A stretch of 64,000 nt of DNA from Minisyncoccia bacterium (GTDB lineage Bacteria; Patescibacteriota; Minisyncoccia; Phycocordibacterales; UBA9973): contig CBFHKH010000001.1 of the NCBI GenBank assembly GCA_965656375.1, forward strand, positions 644,291-708,290, written 5' to 3'. The notes below the pieces were generated by a model. That model was given only the letters and a program-made list of their open reading frames with translations, had not been told where the DNA came from and did no database searches. How positions within the stretch are numbered: position 1 is the stretch's first letter; each line of letters starts with the position of its first letter. Both the position numbers and the translations under genes were made by a program. Below, piece by piece: positions 41,898 through 47,181 of the stretch.

Positions 41898-42155
41898 ATG
41901 GAATCCATAATCAAATCTGATATATTTTTCTTCATTACATCTATCTCTGTCGTTGTTCTCACGGTATTCCTTGGTATCATTGGATTCTATATAGTAAGGA
42001 TAGTGAGGAATTTTTCTCACATATCAGAAACCCTGAAAAATTCAGTGGACGATGCTGATAGTGAGGTTCGCGAGATGGTTGAACATGTGAAGGAAAGTGC
42101 TGTTTTTAATTTTATTTTTGGTAAAAAGAAAAAACACACGAAAAGTCGCAATTAA
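41898..42155 (+). CDS. small membrane protein, hypothetical
   Basis: One TM, ISVVVLTVFLGIIGFYIV. Confidence 0.35.
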   Translation: MESIIKSDIFFFITSISVVVLTVFLGIIGFYIVRIVRNFSHISETLKNSVDDADSEVREMVEHVKESAVFNFIFGKKKKHTKSRN

Positions 42156-42178
42156 TAACTAATAGGTATATATACATT

Positions 42179-42613
42179 ATGAAAAAACAAACAGTAAAAA
42201 AGGGAATGTCTACAGGTGCAAAGATCGGTATTGGGGCAACTGTTGCAGCAGCAGGAGTAGCAGCATATCTTCTCCTTGGTCCGGATGGGAAGAAGAATCG
42301 TAAGAAGGTTAGTGCATGGACAGACAAGATGGAGAAAGAAGTGATTAAAAAGGTTAAATCTGCAAAGGCTCTCTCAGAAGCGACATATCATGATCTCATC
42401 GACGATGTCCTTGCGAAATACAAGACCATACAAGGAGTCAATAAAAAAGAACTTATTGCTCTTGCGTCTGAATTGCGCAATCATTGGAAAGCAATTTCAA
42501 ATAGTGCAAAACCAAAGAAGGTAGTAAAGAAAGTTGTAAAGGCAAAAGTTAAGAGTGCTTTAAAACCAAAGAAAGCGACAAAAGCTACATCAAAACAAAA
42601 AGCAAAAAAGTAA
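42179..42613 (+). CDS. lysine-rich hypothetical protein with N-terminal hydrophobic segment
   Basis: K-rich C-terminus (KPKKVVKKVVKAKVKSALKPKKATKATSKQKAKK). Confidence 0.4.
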   Translation: MKKQTVKKGMSTGAKIGIGATVAAAGVAAYLLLGPDGKKNRKKVSAWTDKMEKEVIKKVKSAKALSEATYHDLIDDVLAKYKTIQGVNKKELIALASELRNHWKAISNSAKPKKVVKKVVKAKVKSALKPKKATKATSKQKAKK

Positions 42614-42616
42614 TAG

Positions 42617-42666
42617 ACTCATATTAAAATCCCCCGATTTCTGTCGGGGGATTTTAATATGAGTTT
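42617..42666. terminator. extended hairpin terminator (ACTCATATTAAAATCCCCCGA...TGTCGGGGGATTTTAATATGAGT)
   Basis: ~23-bp inverted-repeat arms, between convergent genes. Confidence 0.6.
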
Positions 42667-42818
42667 TATGCAACAGGATTCTTACCTTTGATGACTCGTA
42701 CGAGCAACATGATTATCGCTACCACAAGAAGGATATGGATAAAGCCGCTGATAGTATATGAAGTGACCAATCCGAGAATCCACAAAATGATAAGGATTAC
42801 TGCAATTGTAGTAAGCAT
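42666..42818 (-). CDS. lmo0937-family small membrane protein (50 aa)
   Basis: Hand-translated ORF, not in the track: MLTTIAVILIILWILGLVTSYTISGFIHILLVVAIIMLLVRVIKGKNPVA. GFIHILLV.AII is the family signature. Confidence 0.55.
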   Translation of the reverse strand: MLTTIAVILIILWILGLVTSYTISGFIHILLVVAIIMLLVRVIKGKNPVA

Positions 42819-43294
42819 GATATATATTCGTTAATAAATAATATGATATGAAGGAGACGATTCGATCATATCTCTCACATTTCCAGTATAACTTTCTTTT
42901 TGGCAAAAAGAAAAGGCCTAGGAGTTAACTCTCGAGTTATTCGAGACCTAGCTCCTAAGCCTTTGGCTTTAGATTAAAGAACATTCTGCACAGTATAATA
43001 CTAGAGTGCATATTTTCTATGATATATCGGACAATATTTACTTTAAAACCCCTCTATCGTCGGGTGAAACGAATATGCCGCTTATCAAACTACCTTGTTC
43101 TTATTATACAACTACTATCCACAGTCATCAAATAAAGATGTGGATAACTCTTGGTAGGAAATCTCGCTGACGGCGCGTGATTGGTGGTTTGCATGCAAAC
43201 AGCACCAATCTTTCGATTCCTACACGCACGACATGCAGATGTCGTGCTCGAGGGCACATATGAAAAAGAACACTCTAGAGTGTTCTTTTTCATA

Positions 43295-43336
43295 TGTGCC
43301 CTCGGTAGGAATCGAACCTACGACCATCTCCTTAAA
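43295..43336 (-). repeat. 42-nt duplicate of the 3' half of tRNA-Lys(UUU) (anticodon loop to acceptor end), att-like direct repeat
   Basis: tgtgccctcggtaggaatcgaacctacgaccatctccttaaa is identical to 44710..44751 of the intact tRNA-Lys. Confidence 0.7.
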
Positions 43337-44073
43337 TAATATATTTTCATTAAATAATAAAAGTTATTCTAAGTCAATGGCTAAATTCTTGCAAAAGTTT
43401 TTTTCGACGTGATACAATGAACGCAAGGATATAAGATATCCAAAAACAAATATAAAGTTTCTCTATTAGCGTGGAGAAGCAGGCAATCATTCAGTATTCC
43501 AAAAAACTGAAAAATACCTTAAAGGGGCATGTGAGACTCCCAGGAGTCTCATCACGCTAAAACAATGGGACACTGGATTAATTTTCAGAGTTCACATGCG
43601 CCTTTAGGGTATTTTTATTTGTAAGTGTTCTCTGAGAGCAACCGTTCTGGTTGGTTGTTTATCAGGGTACGTTTATAAGTAACTTTGGGAGTGTTGTTGT
43701 ACCTAAAACTCCACGTCGCAGGACATAAAACTGATGTGCCATGAACACTATTTCTTGCACATGTGCCTTAATCTGTGTTGCCTACGTGACTCGGAAAGGT
43801 GGTTGGCGTGACTATGCTCGCAAACGCGGGTTCAAATGTTGGCCAATTACTGACTCTCGATCGTGTGAGTTACACAACAAAAAAGCCCTCAAACCATAAC
43901 AAGTTTTAAAGGCTAAAATGAAAGCTTCTTTGTTTTCTTTCTCCCCATTTCCACAAGAATGGGGATTTTCTTTTAATAGATATATTATACCAACAAGGGA
44001 AGCAAATTTGAATAGGAAATACCCCTTGTTAACCGTGTGCATATCTTACTCGATTGAGGGAATTTATGCAACC

Positions 44074-44107
44074 TAAAATCCCCTTGATATATCAAGGGGA
44101 TTTTAGC
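44074..44107. terminator. perfect palindromic hairpin CTAAAATCCCCTTGATA-TATCAAGGGGATTTTAG
   Basis: Perfect 17-bp arms; same AAAATCCCC stem family. Confidence 0.55.
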
Positions 44108-44215
44108 TTCTGAACCTTTGGCGTTTTAGTTGGTCGATACTGGCCAGTCTTCTTCAAATACTCAACCATACCTTTCCGACCAGCCTTCGATAATTTTTCT
44201 GTAACTTTTTTCATA

Positions 44216-44479
44216 CTAATCAAAATAAATTCCGCCATGTCTGAATCCAAGCCACATCAGGAAACAGATCATAATTAAGAGAGCCGGGAGTTTCCACCAT
44301 GAAAGCTTTTTCTCAGTAAATAGTTGGCTTGTGAATGCCAAACCAATAGTGAGGAATCCTGTGATGGTAAGCGAGGTTTCAAAGTTCACGAAATACATGA
44401 GAACAAAAAAGAGAGCACCGAGGAGTAGAATCGATATTCGAAAGAATGATCGAGCTTCCTCATCTTGAGGTATATGCAT
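44216..44479 (-). CDS. small 3-TM membrane protein, hypothetical
   Basis: Three hydrophobic helices; lies within the att-like-bounded island. Confidence 0.4.
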   Translation of the reverse strand: MHIPQDEEARSFFRISILLLGALFFVLMYFVNFETSLTITGFLTIGLAFTSQLFTEKKLSWWKLPALLIMICFLMWLGFRHGGIYFD

Positions 44480-44711
44480 GGGCGAGGTCGTTTAACTAAT
44501 AACGCAAAACACCATCCTGGAAATGGCCGACCTCGCGAGTAGACCACTCCAAGATGGAGCTTTATACGCGAGGTCTTTATTTGTTTTGCCCTTTAATTGT
44601 AGCATAAATAGGCAGAGGGCGTACAAGAAACCGCCTAACGGCGGTTTCTTGTACGCAACATGTGGATAAGTACGTATTCTTCTCTTTCCTACTTTCCTTT
44701 TACTTATACTG

Positions 44712-44784
44712 TGCCCTCGGTAGGAATCGAACCTACGACCATCTCCTTAAAAGGGAGCTGCTCTACCGACTGAGCTACGAGGGC
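44712..44784 (-). tRNA. tRNA-Lys (anticodon UUU)
   Basis: Hand-folded cloverleaf: acceptor GCCCTCG/CGAGGGC, D-arm GCTCAGTCGGTAGAGC, anticodon loop CUUUUAA, T-arm GTAGGTTCGATTCCTAC. No encoded CCA. Confidence 0.8.
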
Positions 44785-44836
44785 ATTTGCTTGTATAAAA
44801 TTCATTTTACAAGTACACTCAAAAATATCACATTTT

Positions 44837-45334
44837 ATGGAAAAAATCAATAAAACAAAGAATAAACCAGAAGTCATCTTGATTCTCCCTGATATCAGAT
44901 CTGCAATAAATGTCGGTTCAATATTTCGAACGGCAGATGCTGCTGGAGTAGGGAAAATCTATCTCACTGGGTATACGCCGCGTCCAACTGATACATTTGG
45001 CCGAATACAAAAGGATATAGCAAAAAGTGCGCTCGGAGCTGAAACATGGATTCCCTGGGAATACAAAAAAAGTGTATCTGCCCTCATTTCAAAATTACAA
45101 AAAGATGGATACAGCATTGTTGCTCTTGAACAAGATGAGAAGTCAATTGATTACAAGAAATTCAAAACGCCTACAAAGATGGCCCTCATTGTCGGTTCAG
45201 AAGTGGAAGGCTTGAACAAGAAAATAGTAAATACATGTGACTCTGTAATAGAAATACCGATGTACGGTAAGAAAGAGTCTCTCAATGTGGGAGTTGCCGC
45301 TGGGATCGTGTTGTTTCGAATACTCGAACGCTAG
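44837..45334 (+). CDS. SpoU/TrmH-family RNA 2'-O-methyltransferase
   Basis: ILILPDIRSAINVGSIFRTADAAGV...LIVGSEVEGL...IPMYGKKESLNVGVAAGIVLF are SPOUT motifs. Confidence 0.7.
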   Translation: MEKINKTKNKPEVILILPDIRSAINVGSIFRTADAAGVGKIYLTGYTPRPTDTFGRIQKDIAKSALGAETWIPWEYKKSVSALISKLQKDGYSIVALEQDEKSIDYKKFKTPTKMALIVGSEVEGLNKKIVNTCDSVIEIPMYGKKESLNVGVAAGIVLFRILER

Positions 45335-45531
45335 TTTGGTTTTTCACCTGGACCGTAGACTTGAAGCGGAGCTTCTGTATCATTGCCCGGAGTTATGAAT
45401 GGCTTATCTGTTGAAACATTATTCTCAGGTCCTCCGGTGAGAACCCAAATGACGAATATAGCCACAATGAAAAGGAGAATCATTACAAGGAAATCCATTT
45501 CACCTTTTTGATAGTTAATTCTTTTATTCAT
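45331..45531 (-). CDS. small membrane protein, hypothetical
   Basis: One TM FLVMILLFIVAIFVIWVL; translationally coupled to mutM. Confidence 0.35.
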   Translation of the reverse strand: MNKRINYQKGEMDFLVMILLFIVAIFVIWVLTGGPENNVSTDKPFITPGNDTEAPLQVYGPGEKPN

Positions 45532-45533
45532 AT

Positions 45534-46469
45534 TTATAAAAATATTTTCTGGTGCTTACTGCAAAAGTGAGCACTGCGACCACTGATAACTTTTCTTAGT
45601 ATAACACCTGTGCAACCTTTTTTACTACATCGCTCTTTGGTCTTACGGTATGCGTTATGATGACCTTGGAACTTCCCACGATTACCATTTATATCCCGGT
45701 AATCAGATGTCGAGTCTCCGCCAAAATCGATACCTTTTCTAAGAACGTCTCCCATACTTTTATATAAAATCTTTAATTGACGTGTCGGAATCTTGCTCGG
45801 TTTTGATTCGGGATGAATAGAAGCGCGCCAGAGCATTTCATCAGAGTATATATTGCCGATGCCTGCAATGATTGACTGATCCATAAGTACAGTTTTAATA
45901 GCACCGTGTGGACGTCGGAACAAACACTCCTTGAACTTTGAAAGTGTGAAATTCTTTTCAAGTGGTTCAGGGCCAAGAGATCCGAGATGAGAACTTGTAA
46001 TGATTTCTTTTGTCGGGATTACAGTTATCTTGGCAAATTTTCGCATATCAGAAAGAACGATATGCTTGCCATTATCGAGTGTAAAAACGACATGAAGGAA
46101 TTTATTGAACCGATCCCGAAGTGCTTCGTTTTTCTCATCGAAATCAGGTGCCCATTGTTTTACCTTTTTGTCGTATTGATACAGTCCATACATGATATGG
46201 CCTGTCATCTTCATATGGATAAGGATCGTTTCTCCGTTTTCCATGTTGACGAGGATATTCTTCCCTCGTCGCTCTACAGTCGAGACAGGTATCCCGATTA
46301 CTTTTTTTCTAAATAAAGAGAAGTAATTCTGATCTTTTAATGTATCTCTATGATGAGCACGCGATACTTTTTTCATCCCAAGATCAGTCCAAATATCGAC
46401 AATTGATCGCCCTTTTAAAACTTTTTTGAGTCCTTGTACTGTGGTAGTAACTTCTGGTAGTTCTGGCAT
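45534..46469 (-). CDS. mutM: formamidopyrimidine-DNA glycosylase (Fpg/Nei family)
   Basis: N-terminal MPELPEV with catalytic Pro2/Glu; C-terminal zinc finger C...C...C..C. Confidence 0.8.
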   Translation of the reverse strand: MPELPEVTTTVQGLKKVLKGRSIVDIWTDLGMKKVSRAHHRDTLKDQNYFSLFRKKVIGIPVSTVERRGKNILVNMENGETILIHMKMTGHIMYGLYQYDKKVKQWAPDFDEKNEALRDRFNKFLHVVFTLDNGKHIVLSDMRKFAKITVIPTKEIITSSHLGSLGPEPLEKNFTLSKFKECLFRRPHGAIKTVLMDQSIIAGIGNIYSDEMLWRASIHPESKPSKIPTRQLKILYKSMGDVLRKGIDFGGDSTSDYRDINGNRGKFQGHHNAYRKTKERCSKKGCTGVILRKVISGRSAHFCSKHQKIFL

Positions 46470-46472
46470 AGT

Positions 46473-47057
46473 TTACTTTCCGCCTAATATCTTAAGCGCT
46501 TCTTTGATTCGAGCGTTGGTTGTATCGATAGAAGCGGGAACTTGCTTGAGAGCATCCCGAGCCTCTACGTGAGAGTACCCGAGAGTCTTGAGTGCCTCGA
46601 GTGCATCACTCTCACCCCTGAGCATCGATGAAGTATTTCCTTCACCGGTATGTGCATGTAATTTATCCCGAAGTTCGAGGACAATCTTCTCCGCTGTTTT
46701 TCTGCCGATGCCAGATACTTTATTTAAATAACTCGTATCACCTGTAGCAATTGCTTTTTTAAGCGTATCAGTTGATGCAACTGCAAGGATGGAGAGTGCT
46801 GATTTAGGACCGATACCTGAGACATCAAGAAGAAGTTCAAAGAATCCGAGTTCATCATTAGTAGTGAACCCGTAGAGATCAATAGAATTCTCTCGAACAG
46901 CAGTATAAATCCACAGTGATACTTTCTCATCCATATGTATGGAATTCATAGTATCGAGTGTAGTAAAAACCTTGTATCCTACTCCTGATACGTCAATAAT
47001 TGCAAATTTATCAGTTTTATATAGGACAGTGCCTACCAGATGTGAAATCATAGCCAC
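46473..47057 (-). CDS. ruvA: Holliday junction DNA helicase RuvA
   Basis: MISHLVGTVLYKTDKFAIIDVSGVGYKV OB-fold; HhH motifs LLDVSGIGPKSA and VSGIGRKTAEKI. Confidence 0.88.
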   Translation of the reverse strand: MAMISHLVGTVLYKTDKFAIIDVSGVGYKVFTTLDTMNSIHMDEKVSLWIYTAVRENSIDLYGFTTNDELGFFELLLDVSGIGPKSALSILAVASTDTLKKAIATGDTSYLNKVSGIGRKTAEKIVLELRDKLHAHTGEGNTSSMLRGESDALEALKTLGYSHVEARDALKQVPASIDTTNARIKEALKILGGK

Positions 47058-47181
47058 AGTATAGCAAATTTGATAATTCTCTGCTTTTCTGGTATTATAG
47101 GACTATTCAGTTTTACCTGTGTCTCGGGGAAGTTGAATTTGATTCATAATTAGTATTTGTTAATTCATCATTATCTAGAAT

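What the first reader, a model, noticed from the sequence alone, without database searches (positions are those of the whole stretch)
43176..43336. tRNA-flanking composite element: sense-strand T-loop plus acceptor mimic split by a covarying GCAG-loop hairpin, followed by a 54-bp perfect palindrome into an antisense tRNA-Lys 3' half
The plus strand reads as follows:
- hairpin GATTGGTG-GTTTGCATGCAAAC-AG-CACCAATC;
- TCTTTCGATTCC, a T-loop-like segment;
- hairpin GCACGACAT-GCAG-ATGTCGTGC;
- TCGAGGGCACA, the tRNA-Lys acceptor 3' strand;
- a 54-bp perfect palindrome (43250-43303) whose right arm is the 3' end of a minus-strand partial tRNA-Lys.
The same architecture recurs at tRNA-Arg (47911-48041) and tRNA-Ser (50165-50285). 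The Lys and Arg hairpins differ by paired compensatory changes that keep the 9-bp stem and the GCAG loop (Lys CGAC with GTCG; Arg AAAC with GTTT). That is the signature of selection on the structure. I do not recognise this as a described element. Candidates are a site-specific recombinase or HUH-transposase recognition site, a tRNA-trailer processing or termination module, or a mobile miniature element that copies tRNA 3' ends.
Basis: seen in the sequence. Interest (0 to 1): 0.8.

Follow-up and report, generated by a model that had tools for sequence, protein, structure and literature searches.

The report
Hairpin module mirroring neighbouring tRNA ends
Beside each tRNA gene in this window lies a 110-170-base non-coding module of conserved hairpins carrying an inverted copy of that tRNA's own 3' end; the same undescribed module sits beside tRNA genes in more than a hundred Paceibacteria-type genomes, and its stems evolve like DNA palindromes rather than like an RNA.

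Summary
All three tRNA loci in the window carry the same module on the + strand. Its parts are a stem P0, a TAC-triloop hairpin, a bulged hairpin P2, an exact copy of the neighbour tRNA's T-loop and T-stem 3' strand, a 9-bp GCAG hairpin, and the acceptor 3' strand running into a palindromic terminator.

A pattern scan and a covariance model found about 130 further copies in Paceibacteria-type MAGs. Nearly all converge on a tRNA (15 amino-acid identities) whose 3' end they mirror. All 23 modelled pairs covary. No match was found in Rfam, phage or plasmid records, viral contigs, or the papers searched.

The stems do not behave like a one-strand RNA. Their G.T and A.C mismatches are equal (40 vs 46), while tRNA stems in the same loci show 81 vs 3. 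Units also form tandem arrays with decaying distal copies, swap interior modules within a genome, have no recombinase gene nearby, and are absent from close relatives.

Best reading (about 0.4): a lineage-restricted, non-coding DNA palindrome module anchored on tRNA 3' ends and acting as folded single-stranded DNA or cruciform. An RNA role in the tRNA trailer, or a guide-like role, is not excluded. What it does is unknown.

The parts
43154..43163 (+). Lys unit, P0 5' strand (GTAGGAAATC). It is the complement of the T-stem 3' strand plus part of the T-loop copy.
   Evidence: Sequence; pairs with 43215-43223 in the fold.
43165..43175 (+). Lys unit, small hairpin hpB. This copy is weak and has no TAC loop.
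43179..43210 (+). Lys unit, hairpin P2 with a 3'-side AG bulge.
   Evidence: the basal helix covaries across copies.
43212..43223 (+). Lys unit, inverted copy of tRNA-Lys T54-65 (TTCGATTCCTAC), preceded by the conserved TCT.
43226..43247 (+). Lys unit, hairpin hpD: 9 bp with a GCAG loop, flanked by AC and T.
43249..43304 (.). 56-bp perfect palindrome: acceptor 3' strand copy + discriminator + trailer, a bidirectional terminator hairpin, and the 3' end of the displaced tRNA-Lys half.
   Evidence: I1.
43295..43336 (-). Displaced 3' half of tRNA-Lys (anticodon loop to 3' end). It is a 42-nt direct repeat of 44710-44751 and is not part of the module.
   Evidence: D1.
44711..44784 (-). Intact tRNA-Lys(UUU), whose 3' end the Lys unit mirrors.
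47773..47867 (+). Decayed distal unit at the Arg locus.
   Evidence: 17.8 bits, E = 0.028; sequence.
47874..47993 (+). Arg unit: P0 5' strand 47880-47890, hpB (TAC loop) 47891-47903, P2 47910-47944, T54-65 copy 47947-47958, hpD 47961-47982, acceptor 3' copy + ACCA 47984-47994.
   Evidence: 108 bits.
47984..48041 (.). Arg palindrome: acceptor copy + CCA + trailer, terminator hairpin, and the tRNA-Arg 3' end.
   Evidence: Sequence.
48031..48105 (-). tRNA-Arg(GCG).
50125..50242 (+). Ser unit: P0 5' strand 50135-50142, hpB 50143-50154, P2 50161-50192, T-loop/T-stem copy 50196-50207 (one mismatch to the tRNA), hpD 50210-50231 (one T.G pair), acceptor 3' copy 50233-50244.
   Evidence: 99 bits.
50245..50272 (.). 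Terminator hairpin between the Ser unit and tRNA-Ser.
   Evidence: minus-strand terminator 50265-50253.
50277..50364 (-). tRNA-Ser(UGA).

Best explanation
The element is one copy of a lineage-restricted family of non-coding, hairpin-rich DNA modules (about 110-170 bp) anchored on the 3' end of tRNA genes in a subset of Paceibacteria (candidate phyla radiation).

Each unit has two kinds of parts:
- A scaffold shared by all copies: the TAC-triloop hairpin hpB, the NGGTA junction, the bulged hairpin P2, the TCTTTCGA core, and usually the 9-bp GCAG hairpin hpD.
- Locus-specific arms. One is an inverted copy of the neighbour tRNA's T-loop, T-stem 3' strand and acceptor 3' strand, split by hpD exactly at the T-stem/acceptor junction. 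The other is a direct-repeat complement that closes stem P0 and, in intact copies (about 30%), an acceptor-like stem.

Shown: the stems are kept as Watson-Crick palindromes with no preference for the wobble pairs of either strand. The structure under constraint is therefore folded single-stranded DNA or a cruciform, or both transcripts, and not one RNA. In such a fold the tRNA gene's own 3' end forms one arm of a branched hairpin.

Inferred:
- Units multiply locally by tandem duplication.
- Interior modules are exchanged between tRNA loci of one genome by gene conversion.
- The arms are templated on the adjacent tRNA gene by fold-back (template-switch) copying.
- The conserved loops are read by a trans-acting, structure-specific DNA enzyme, of the kind that reads REPINs, integron attC sites or the CTX-phage folded attP.

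Whether the module is selfish or domesticated is not resolved.
For: Family and linkage:
- A pattern scan gave about 102 true copies in CPR MAGs.
- A convergent tRNA lies within 120 nt (mostly 4-58 nt) in 67 of the 81 copies that have any tRNA downstream in the locus.
- The 20-nt arm is identical to that tRNA in 36 of 73 copies and has 1-4 mismatches in the other 37, across 15 amino-acid identities.
- 87 of 129 tRNAs in the fetched loci have an inverted copy of their own T54-65 within 260 nt downstream, against 5 of 129 when another tRNA's sequence is used.

Structure:
- All 23 modelled pairs covary.
- The loops are conserved: TAC in 89 of 129 copies, GCAG in 118 of 129.

DNA-type constraint:
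- G.T versus A.C mismatches are 40 versus 46 in the unit stems (17 versus 16 in hpD).
- G.U versus A.C is 81 versus 3 in the acceptor and T stems of 130 tRNAs from the same loci.
- Folding energy does not differ between the strands over 88 copies. The G.U fraction is equal on both strands.
- In intact units both flanks are terminator hairpins that abut the arms, leaving no room for a promoter. No promoter was found in the window.

Repeat-like dynamics:
- Tandem arrays occur with decayed distal copies: L063, L009, L108 and the window Arg locus.
- The 5' module differs in type between close relatives, and the unit ends are breakpoints.
- Interiors at different tRNAs are more alike within a genome than between genomes (0.76 versus 0.67, p = 4e-5), while hpD is not.
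- Distribution is patchy: no hit in 351 kb around 80 homologues of the neighbouring gene. The closest relative has the same synteny without a unit.

Constraint at single loci:
- Orthologous copies keep their stems through compensatory changes while flanking intergenic DNA is unalignable (L004/L071, L023/L059).
Against: - No recombinase, transposase or other recurrent protein gene lies near the units, so the proposed reader enzyme is hypothetical.
- No excised form or precise empty site was seen.
- Spread to 15 different tRNA identities, each with matching arms, needs a copying step that I infer but have not shown.
- Mismatches between arm and tRNA concentrate at positions 70-73, next to the palindrome centre. 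That is not what simple palindrome correction predicts.
- Conserved core sequence over many named lineages, and compensatory change at orthologous loci, fit a host function as well as a selfish repeat.
- In L016/L079 the unit follows the tRNA with no terminator between them, so there it must be co-transcribed with the tRNA.
- The loci were chosen for carrying the motif, so prevalence figures drawn from them are biased upward.
Confidence: 0.4

Rival explanations
1. Cis-acting RNA. The unit is transcribed as the 3' trailer of the tRNA (read-through), or as a convergent antisense small RNA. Its arm pairs with the tRNA's T-loop, T-stem and acceptor 3' strand, while P0 acts as an internal competitor. 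The outcome would be control of 3'-end processing, quality control of read-through precursors, or tRNA level.
For: - The arm closest to hpD (positions 54-69) stays matched to the tRNA far better than the distal copy does.
- In the tRNA sense the unit has tRNA-like topology: the hairpin replaces nucleotides 8-48 and the 3' strand is continuous.
- In L016/L079 no terminator separates tRNA and unit.
- About two thirds of tRNAs in the fetched loci carry it.
- Loop sequences are conserved.
Against: - The stems lack the G.U excess that tRNA stems of the same loci show.
- Neither folding energy nor G.U content shows a strand preference.
- Terminators on both sides leave no room for a promoter.
- The copy follows the gene's trailer (ACA in Lys) and not the mature CCA end.
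- Close relatives manage without it.
Confidence: 0.2
2. Scars of classical integrase events. Each unit is the remnant of an integrative element that recombined in the T-loop, bringing its own copy of the tRNA 3' end and displacing the original.
For: - Direct repeats run from C56 to the acceptor end, the extent expected of elements that recombine within the T-loop; this is my own recollection of a published survey of tRNA integration sites, which I did not check here. They flank intact units, and the distal copy often keeps its own terminator.
- Arrays have decaying distal copies.
- tRNA genes of these genomes are genuine integration targets, as shown by the 42-nt repeat at tRNA-Lys and partial tRNAs in L032, L084 and L088.
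Against: - There is no integrase gene or remnant and no phage, plasmid or viral relative.
- The same scaffold sits at 15 tRNA identities with matching arms, which one attP cannot supply.
- The inverted arm and hpD have no counterpart in att scars.
- The L108 array junction lies inside hpD and not in the T-loop.
- The stems are conserved by compensatory change.
Confidence: 0.1
3. Programmable guide. The two arms flanking hpD act as a bipartite guide, as RNA or as single-stranded DNA, that lets a trans-encoded recombinase or transposase recognise one particular tRNA gene. This would be analogous to IS110 bridge RNAs or the DNA guides of IS200/IS605 ends.
For: - A constant scaffold is combined with locus-specific arms that match a 20-nt target, split by a hairpin.
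- Interior modules move between loci.
- The distribution is patchy.
Against: - No enzyme gene lies in or near any unit.
- Both arms match the same strand of the target.
- Each guide sits next to its own target rather than in a mobile element elsewhere.
- No copy was found away from a tRNA locus, intact or disrupted, in the window or in the loci.
Confidence: 0.1
4. Bidirectional insulator. The hairpins must fold in the transcripts of both strands, to stop or trap transcription running into or out of the tRNA gene. That requirement would explain Watson-Crick-only stems.
For: - The mismatch spectrum is strand-symmetric.
- The position is always at the tRNA 3' end, fused to a bidirectional terminator.
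- An antisense read-through transcript would be folded back by the inverted arm.
Against: - hpD, P2 and hpB have no U tract on either strand.
- The conserved TAC and GCAG loops and the tRNA-matched arms are not needed for termination.
- Many tRNAs in the same genomes have plain terminators.
- The orientation of neighbouring genes shows no bias.
Confidence: 0.1

Closest known systems
REP / REPIN (BIME) extragenic palindromes mobilised by RAYT (HUH) transposases
   Same: Both are non-coding, hairpin-forming DNA repeats in intergenic DNA next to terminators. Both lack a gene of their own, are inherited vertically with turnover, conserve structure at the DNA level, and are presumed to be acted on in trans.
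   Different: REPINs are dispersed in hundreds of copies with constant sequence and a GTAG motif. These units occur only at tRNA 3' ends, have several distinct hairpins, and have arms copied from the neighbouring gene. No RAYT is known or was found here.
Folded single-stranded recombination sites: integron attC and CTX-phage attP(+) used by XerCD
   Same: In both, an imperfect palindrome folds in single-stranded DNA into a duplex that mimics the target site, with an extrahelical feature on one arm. Stem sequence is free but structure is kept, and integron cassettes form tandem arrays.
   Different: There is no intI or attI and no GTTRRRY core. The 'target mimic' here is the adjacent tRNA end, the extrahelical feature is a whole 22-nt hairpin, there is no cargo gene, and the array junction in L108 is not at a fixed site.
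Direct repeats of tRNA 3' segments left by tyrosine-integrase elements
   Same: Both involve direct repeats of the tRNA 3' end. In the units they run from the T-loop to the acceptor end. The window has one classical case running from the anticodon loop (42 nt).
   Different: The units have no integrase and no element body. They carry an extra inverted copy interrupted by a conserved hairpin, and the same scaffold occurs at many different tRNAs.
Quasi-palindrome template-switch mutation (fold-back copying) that creates and perfects hairpins
   Same: It explains perfect stems, one-step 'compensatory' changes, inverted copies of adjacent sequence, and small in-place inversions such as the one at the Arg locus.
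   Different: It is a mutational process and not an element. It does not explain a scaffold with conserved loops shared by unrelated loci and genomes.
tRNA minihelix mimics and external guide sequences for RNase P
   Same: Both involve acceptor and T-stem strands of a specific tRNA. Intact units can close a 12-bp acceptor/T-like stack.
   Different: The T-loop is paired rather than free and the acceptor 5' strand has decayed in about 70% of copies. The stems lack RNA-type wobble tolerance, and no tRNA-clan model scores on the units.
IS110-family bridge RNA
   Same: Both have a constant scaffold with variable target-matching segments flanking a stem-loop.
   Different: A bridge RNA lies inside an IS110 element next to its recombinase gene and has two loops whose halves read opposite strands. 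Here there is no gene, and both arms match one strand.

Membership tests
tRNA / tRNA-like RNA (Rfam RF00005, clan CL00001) | Scores against the tRNA or tmRNA covariance models. | tested here: not met
   Only the true tRNAs reach threshold. The units give no tRNA-clan hit beyond sub-threshold tmRNA fragments that overlap the real tRNA ends.
tRNA / tRNA-like RNA (Rfam RF00005, clan CL00001) | Helices tolerate G.U far more than A.C, as expected of a one-strand RNA. | tested here: not met
   Unit stems: G.T 40 versus A.C 46. tRNA stems of the same loci: 81 versus 3.
Any Rfam 15 family | A covariance-model match at E <= 1-10 on either strand. | tested here: not met
   Window 42000-51500 and eight further loci gave nothing on the units.
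Intrinsic (rho-independent) terminator | A G+C-containing hairpin followed by a U tract. | tested here: met
   Met by the central hairpin only: a scan hit at the Ser locus, and A/T-tract-flanked hairpins at Lys and Arg. hpD, P2 and hpB lack U tracts on both strands.
Integrase att duplication at a tRNA gene | A direct repeat of the tRNA 3' segment flanking the inserted DNA. | tested here: inconclusive
   The 12-nt acceptor + T-stem repeat is perfect in 14 of 94 units and has at most 2 mismatches in 29 of 94. It is clearly met by the separate 42-nt repeat at tRNA-Lys.
Integrase att duplication at a tRNA gene | An integrase gene or remnant within or beside the inserted DNA. | tested here: not met
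   Pfam on neighbouring ORFs; no recurrent neighbour family among 826 ORFs of the loci.
Integron attC / cassette | An adjacent intI/attI platform and GTTRRRY / RYYYAAC core sites at cassette boundaries. | tested here: not met
   No integrase is nearby. Unit boundaries are tRNA-derived sequence. The core motif was judged by inspection only.
REP/REPIN-RAYT | Many dispersed extragenic copies of one short palindrome. | tested here: not met
   The model hits only tRNA loci: 4 in the 64-kb window (3 units and 1 decayed copy), all at the three tRNA loci.
REP/REPIN-RAYT | A cognate RAYT (Y1 HUH) gene in the genome. | not testable with these tools
   Whole genomes of the unit-bearing MAGs were not available for profiling.
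MITE | Constant terminal inverted repeats, a short target-site duplication, and dispersed insertion sites. | tested here: not met
   The terminal arms differ at every locus and equal the neighbour tRNA. There is a single kind of site.
IS110 bridge RNA / IS200-IS605 end | Lies in the non-coding end of an element that encodes the recombinase or transposase. | tested here: not met
   There is no ORF in or next to the units.

The most novel reading that the evidence does not exclude
The modules are a programmable nucleic-acid recognition system. A constant hairpin scaffold presents two arms, re-templated at each locus, that pair with the 3' end of one particular tRNA gene or its transcript. Through this pairing a trans-acting factor would recombine, protect or regulate each tRNA gene individually. 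That would be a tRNA-by-tRNA guide set with no described counterpart in bacteria.
Probability: 0.12. Interest if true: 0.9.

Novelty: new variant of a known kind. Interest (0 to 1): 0.7.

Why it matters
- **Genome economy.** A structured module found after most tRNA genes in the loci sampled (87 of 129), in bacteria thought to have very small genomes, is hard to dismiss as junk. Either it does something for the tRNA genes, or it is a remarkably successful parasite of them.
- **A caution for RNA-motif discovery.** Strong covariation (23 of 23 pairs) is seen here without the G.U signature of RNA. Comparing wobble asymmetry with tRNA stems from the same loci is a cheap control for this.
- **Mechanism.** Arms that mirror the neighbouring gene imply either a local copying process or a guide-like function. 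Either one would be new for tRNA loci.
- **Practical effects.** Loci cut off by a contig end within 100-200 nt of a unit (L012, L019, L031, L063, L105) suggest the units may break assemblies at tRNA loci, and they mark rearrangement breakpoints.

Tried and rejected
**Explanations tested and set aside**
- **Known RNA family.** Rfam on the window and on eight loci at permissive E-values gave nothing on the units.
- **Strand assignment.** I tried folding energy, G.U counts in predicted folds, the substitution direction between arm and tRNA, and promoter scans. None gave a strand signal.
- **UTR of a neighbouring gene.** The far-side neighbour is co-directional with the tRNA in 39 cases and convergent in 22.
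- **Head-on orientation bias.** There is none.
- **Linked enzyme.** Clustering 826 ORFs from the loci produced no recurrent recombinase.
- **Phage or plasmid origin.** There were no viral contig hits and no BLAST hits in plasmids or phages.
- **PBS-like pairing with mature tRNA.** Rejected, because the copy follows the gene's trailer (ACA at Lys) and not CCA.
- **Hammerhead or other small ribozyme cores at the hairpin junction.** The junction is only A / GU.
- **Site-specific insertion at the T-loop as the source of arrays.** The L108 junction lies inside hpD, so tandem duplication is more likely.
- **A family of small inserts like the 1.4-kb one at tRNA-Lys.** That insert has no relative in any fetched locus.

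**Searches that led nowhere**
- A look-up of the exact RuvA protein failed.
- The one contig found for the neighbouring gene starts inside the Arg unit and added nothing.
- Six literature searches found no description.
Full report
**1. What is in the window**

ARAGORN and Rfam find three tRNA genes, all on the minus strand: Lys(UUU) 44711-44784, Arg(GCG) 48031-48105 and Ser(UGA) 50277-50364.

The pattern TCTTTCGA-N-TC-N3-CACG-N8-GCAG occurs exactly three times in 64 kb, against 0.03 expected. Each occurrence lies just beyond the 3' end of a tRNA, on the opposite strand.

The palindrome at Lys is 56 bp (43249-43304).

The 'partial tRNA-Lys' (43295-43336) is a perfect 42-nt direct repeat of 44710-44751. 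A 1415-bp segment has therefore integrated into tRNA-Lys at the anticodon loop. The module stayed with the displaced original 3' half, so it belongs to the chromosomal tRNA locus and not to that insert.

**2. Anatomy**

Read on the + strand, each unit consists of these parts in order:
- the T-stem 5' strand plus A plus UUCG, or a variant such as AAUCUCG (the P0 5' strand);
- a small hairpin hpB, usually 5-6 bp with a TAC triloop;
- the junction NGGUA;
- hairpin P2, with a basal helix CUUUUC/GAAAAG-like, a 1-2-nt purine bulge on the 3' side, and an apical helix;
- UCU;
- an exact copy of the neighbour tRNA's T54-65, whose bases 56-65 pair back to form P0;
- AC;
- a 9-bp hairpin hpD with a GCAG loop;
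- U;
- the acceptor 3' strand, discriminator and trailer, running into the terminator hairpin it shares with the tRNA.

hpD therefore sits exactly at the T-stem/acceptor junction (65/66).

About 30% of copies in other genomes also carry the complement of the acceptor strand in front of the T-stem 5' strand. That complement is often preceded by a second terminator. An intact unit is thus closed by an acceptor-like stem and lies between two hairpin terminators. In the three window units this outer complement has decayed.

**3. It is a family**

About 102 of them have an intact 9-bp hairpin, with many different stem sequences. Almost all come from Paceibacteria-type CPR MAGs, including Nomura-, Vogel-, Yonath-, Adler- and Taylorbacteria and 'Paceibacterota'.

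- In 67 of the 81 copies that have any tRNA downstream in the locus, a convergent tRNA lies within 120 nt (mostly 4-58 nt).
- These tRNAs cover 15 amino-acid identities.
- The 20-nt arm is identical to that tRNA's 3' end in 36 of 73 copies and has 1-4 mismatches in the rest.

A covariance model built from 31 copies found only the three units and one decayed copy (47773-47867) in the window. It found 129 copies in 98 loci, including tandem arrays.

All 23 modelled base pairs show changes on both sides. 94.4% of cells are paired against 67.9% in shuffles, with no shuffle in 500 reaching that value. Sliding the partner column drops pairing to 36-49% (seed alignment).

The loops are conserved: TAC in 89 and CAC in 12 of 129 hpB loops, and GCAG in 118 of 129 hpD loops. 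The GCAG figure is partly an effect of the search pattern. Relaxed inspection shows that CUGC on the tRNA strand still dominates, with some variants and some units lacking hpD altogether.

In the fetched loci, 87 of 129 tRNAs have an inverted copy of their own T54-65 (at most 1 mismatch) within 260 nt downstream. The control using another tRNA's sequence gives 5 of 129. These loci were selected for the motif, so the fraction is an upper estimate.

**4. RNA or DNA**

- Folding energies of the two strands do not differ over 88 copies. Predicted G.U content is 4.7% versus 4.3%.
- On the model alignment the non-Watson-Crick cells are strand-symmetric. There are 40 G.T cells (wobble on the + strand) and 46 A.C cells (wobble on the minus strand). 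In hpD the counts are 17 and 16, among 1093 Watson-Crick pairs.
- As a control, the acceptor and T stems of the 130 distinct tRNAs in the same loci have 81 G.U against 3 A.C.

A helix selected in one RNA strand should look like the tRNA stems. These helices are kept as Watson-Crick palindromes.

This fits a structure formed by single-stranded DNA or a cruciform, a structure needed in both transcripts, or stems kept perfect by fold-back copying.

Two further observations agree with it. Intact units are flanked by terminators that abut the arms, leaving no room for a promoter on either strand. No convincing promoter precedes the window units.

One exception should be noted. In L016/L079 the hairpin follows the tRNA 3' end directly, with no terminator, so there the unit must be part of the tRNA transcript.

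**5. Dynamics**

- Tandem arrays exist: L063 with three units, L009 with two, L108 with three, and others. Distal units are decayed and proximal ones intact. The window Arg and Ser loci both carry decayed remnants upstream.
- The L108 repeat junction lies inside hpD, which points to tandem duplication rather than a fixed crossover.
- Between close relatives, whose tRNA and 5' flank are about 97-99% identical, the core from NGGUA to hpD is unchanged. The 5' module, the terminator and the DNA beyond the unit differ completely (L016/L079, L001/L062, L064/L065).
- More distant orthologues keep their stems through compensatory changes while flanking intergenic DNA cannot be aligned (L004/L071 in hpB, L023/L059 in hpD).
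- Interiors at different tRNAs are more alike within a genome than between genomes (0.76 versus 0.67, p = 4e-5; some pairs reach 0.9-0.99). hpD is no more alike within a genome (0.71 versus 0.71). So the interior evolves in concert, while hpD and the arms are local.
- No protein family recurs next to the units.
- The neighbour on the far side can be on either strand, and tRNA orientation relative to its neighbours shows no bias.

**6. Distribution is patchy**

Eighty metagenome loci encode homologues (55-79% identity) of the 203-aa protein next to tRNA-Arg. They contain no model hit in 351 kb. Only 2-4 of their 16 assessable tRNAs have any inverted T-arm copy.

The closest relative, L119, keeps the synteny thioredoxin-like gene / tRNA-Arg / 203-aa gene. 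There the tRNA and its promoter point the other way, and there is neither a unit nor a terminator.

Gain or loss of units therefore goes together with local rearrangement, and the module is not universal in the class.

**7. Interpretation**

Shown:
- a conserved, tRNA-anchored, multi-hairpin module with arms copied from the neighbour tRNA;
- a DNA-type pairing constraint;
- local duplication and decay;
- exchange of interior modules within a genome;
- a patchy distribution;
- no linked gene.

Inferred: the module works as folded DNA, and its arms are templated on the adjacent gene by fold-back copying. A trans-acting, structure-specific enzyme reads the conserved loops, as for REPINs, attC sites or the CTX-phage folded attP. 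I put about 0.4 on this DNA-level repeat reading.

Rivals:
- An RNA role in the tRNA trailer or as an antisense RNA is the main rival (0.2). The arm next to hpD stays matched to the tRNA, and some units must be co-transcribed.
- Classical att scars (0.1) fail on the inverted arm, on the shared scaffold at many tRNAs, and on the absence of any integrase.
- A guide-like system (0.1) and a bidirectional insulator (0.1) remain possible.
- An assembly artefact is excluded by recurrence across many independent MAGs and by orthologous copies with compensatory changes.

**8. Known or new**

No Rfam family matches. No phage, plasmid or viral sequence matches, and the searchable literature holds no description. 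These checks are limited: the paper library is incomplete, and only one scan of each large collection was possible.

I classify the module as a new variant of a known kind, namely extragenic palindromic repeat elements. It has one feature I know from no described family: arms that mirror the adjoining tRNA gene.

Interest is 0.7. The object is real, widespread and odd, but its function is unresolved.

Noticed in passing
window 43337-44709 (repeats 43295-43336 and 44710-44751): A 1415-bp spacing between perfect 42-nt direct repeats of the tRNA-Lys 3' half (anticodon loop to 3' end). This is a small integrated segment with no integrase, only short ORFs (an 87-aa membrane-like one and a Cys-rich 52-aa one) and its own terminator at 44619-44656. 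It has no relative in any fetched locus.
   Followed up: partly
window 43139-43147 and 44661-44669: The only two TGTGGATAA (DnaA-box-like) sites in 64 kb. One flanks the far end of the Lys unit and the other follows the intact tRNA-Lys. ATGTGGATAACTCT also lies downstream of tRNA-Arg(TCG) in L041, and a similar site is in L092.
   Followed up: partly
window 47773-47867 and 50089-50134: Decayed older units upstream of the Arg unit (weak model hit) and of the Ser unit (GGCGGTGAGAGCTTCGAAAC...CAGTACAC, below the model threshold).
   Followed up: partly
window 48031-48165 versus L119 1062-1204: tRNA-Arg together with its promoter region is inverted relative to the conserved flanking genes, compared with the closest relative found. 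The breakpoints are at the tRNA 3' end and upstream of the promoter.
   Followed up: partly
window 42618-42663: A 46-bp near-perfect palindromic bidirectional terminator after ORF 42179-42613, followed by about 500 bp with no ORF of 60 aa or more before the Lys unit.
   Followed up: no
L003 and L090 (about 85-145 nt downstream of the unit's TCTTTCGA core, on the unit strand), L110, L089: The tRNA that should follow the unit is cut off a few bases into the acceptor and replaced by unrelated DNA. In L003 and L090 that DNA shares a hairpin plus TATTCTAGCAT, perhaps the end of another element that targets tRNA acceptor ends.
   Followed up: no
L032, L084, L088, L042: Units followed by truncated or hybrid tRNA 3' parts, with the intact tRNA 0.9-4 kb away or missing. 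These look like further integration events at unit-bearing tRNA genes.
   Followed up: no
L129, L137, L185 (tRNA-Ser GGA): In genomes without the module, the terminator is followed by an inverted copy of the T-arm only (GGGAGAGATTCGAAC). This could be a simpler or ancestral form.
   Followed up: no
L116 (Logan contig ERR15116721_4560): The only other contig with the identical 203-aa protein begins inside the Arg unit. This is consistent with assemblies breaking at these repeats.
   Followed up: no
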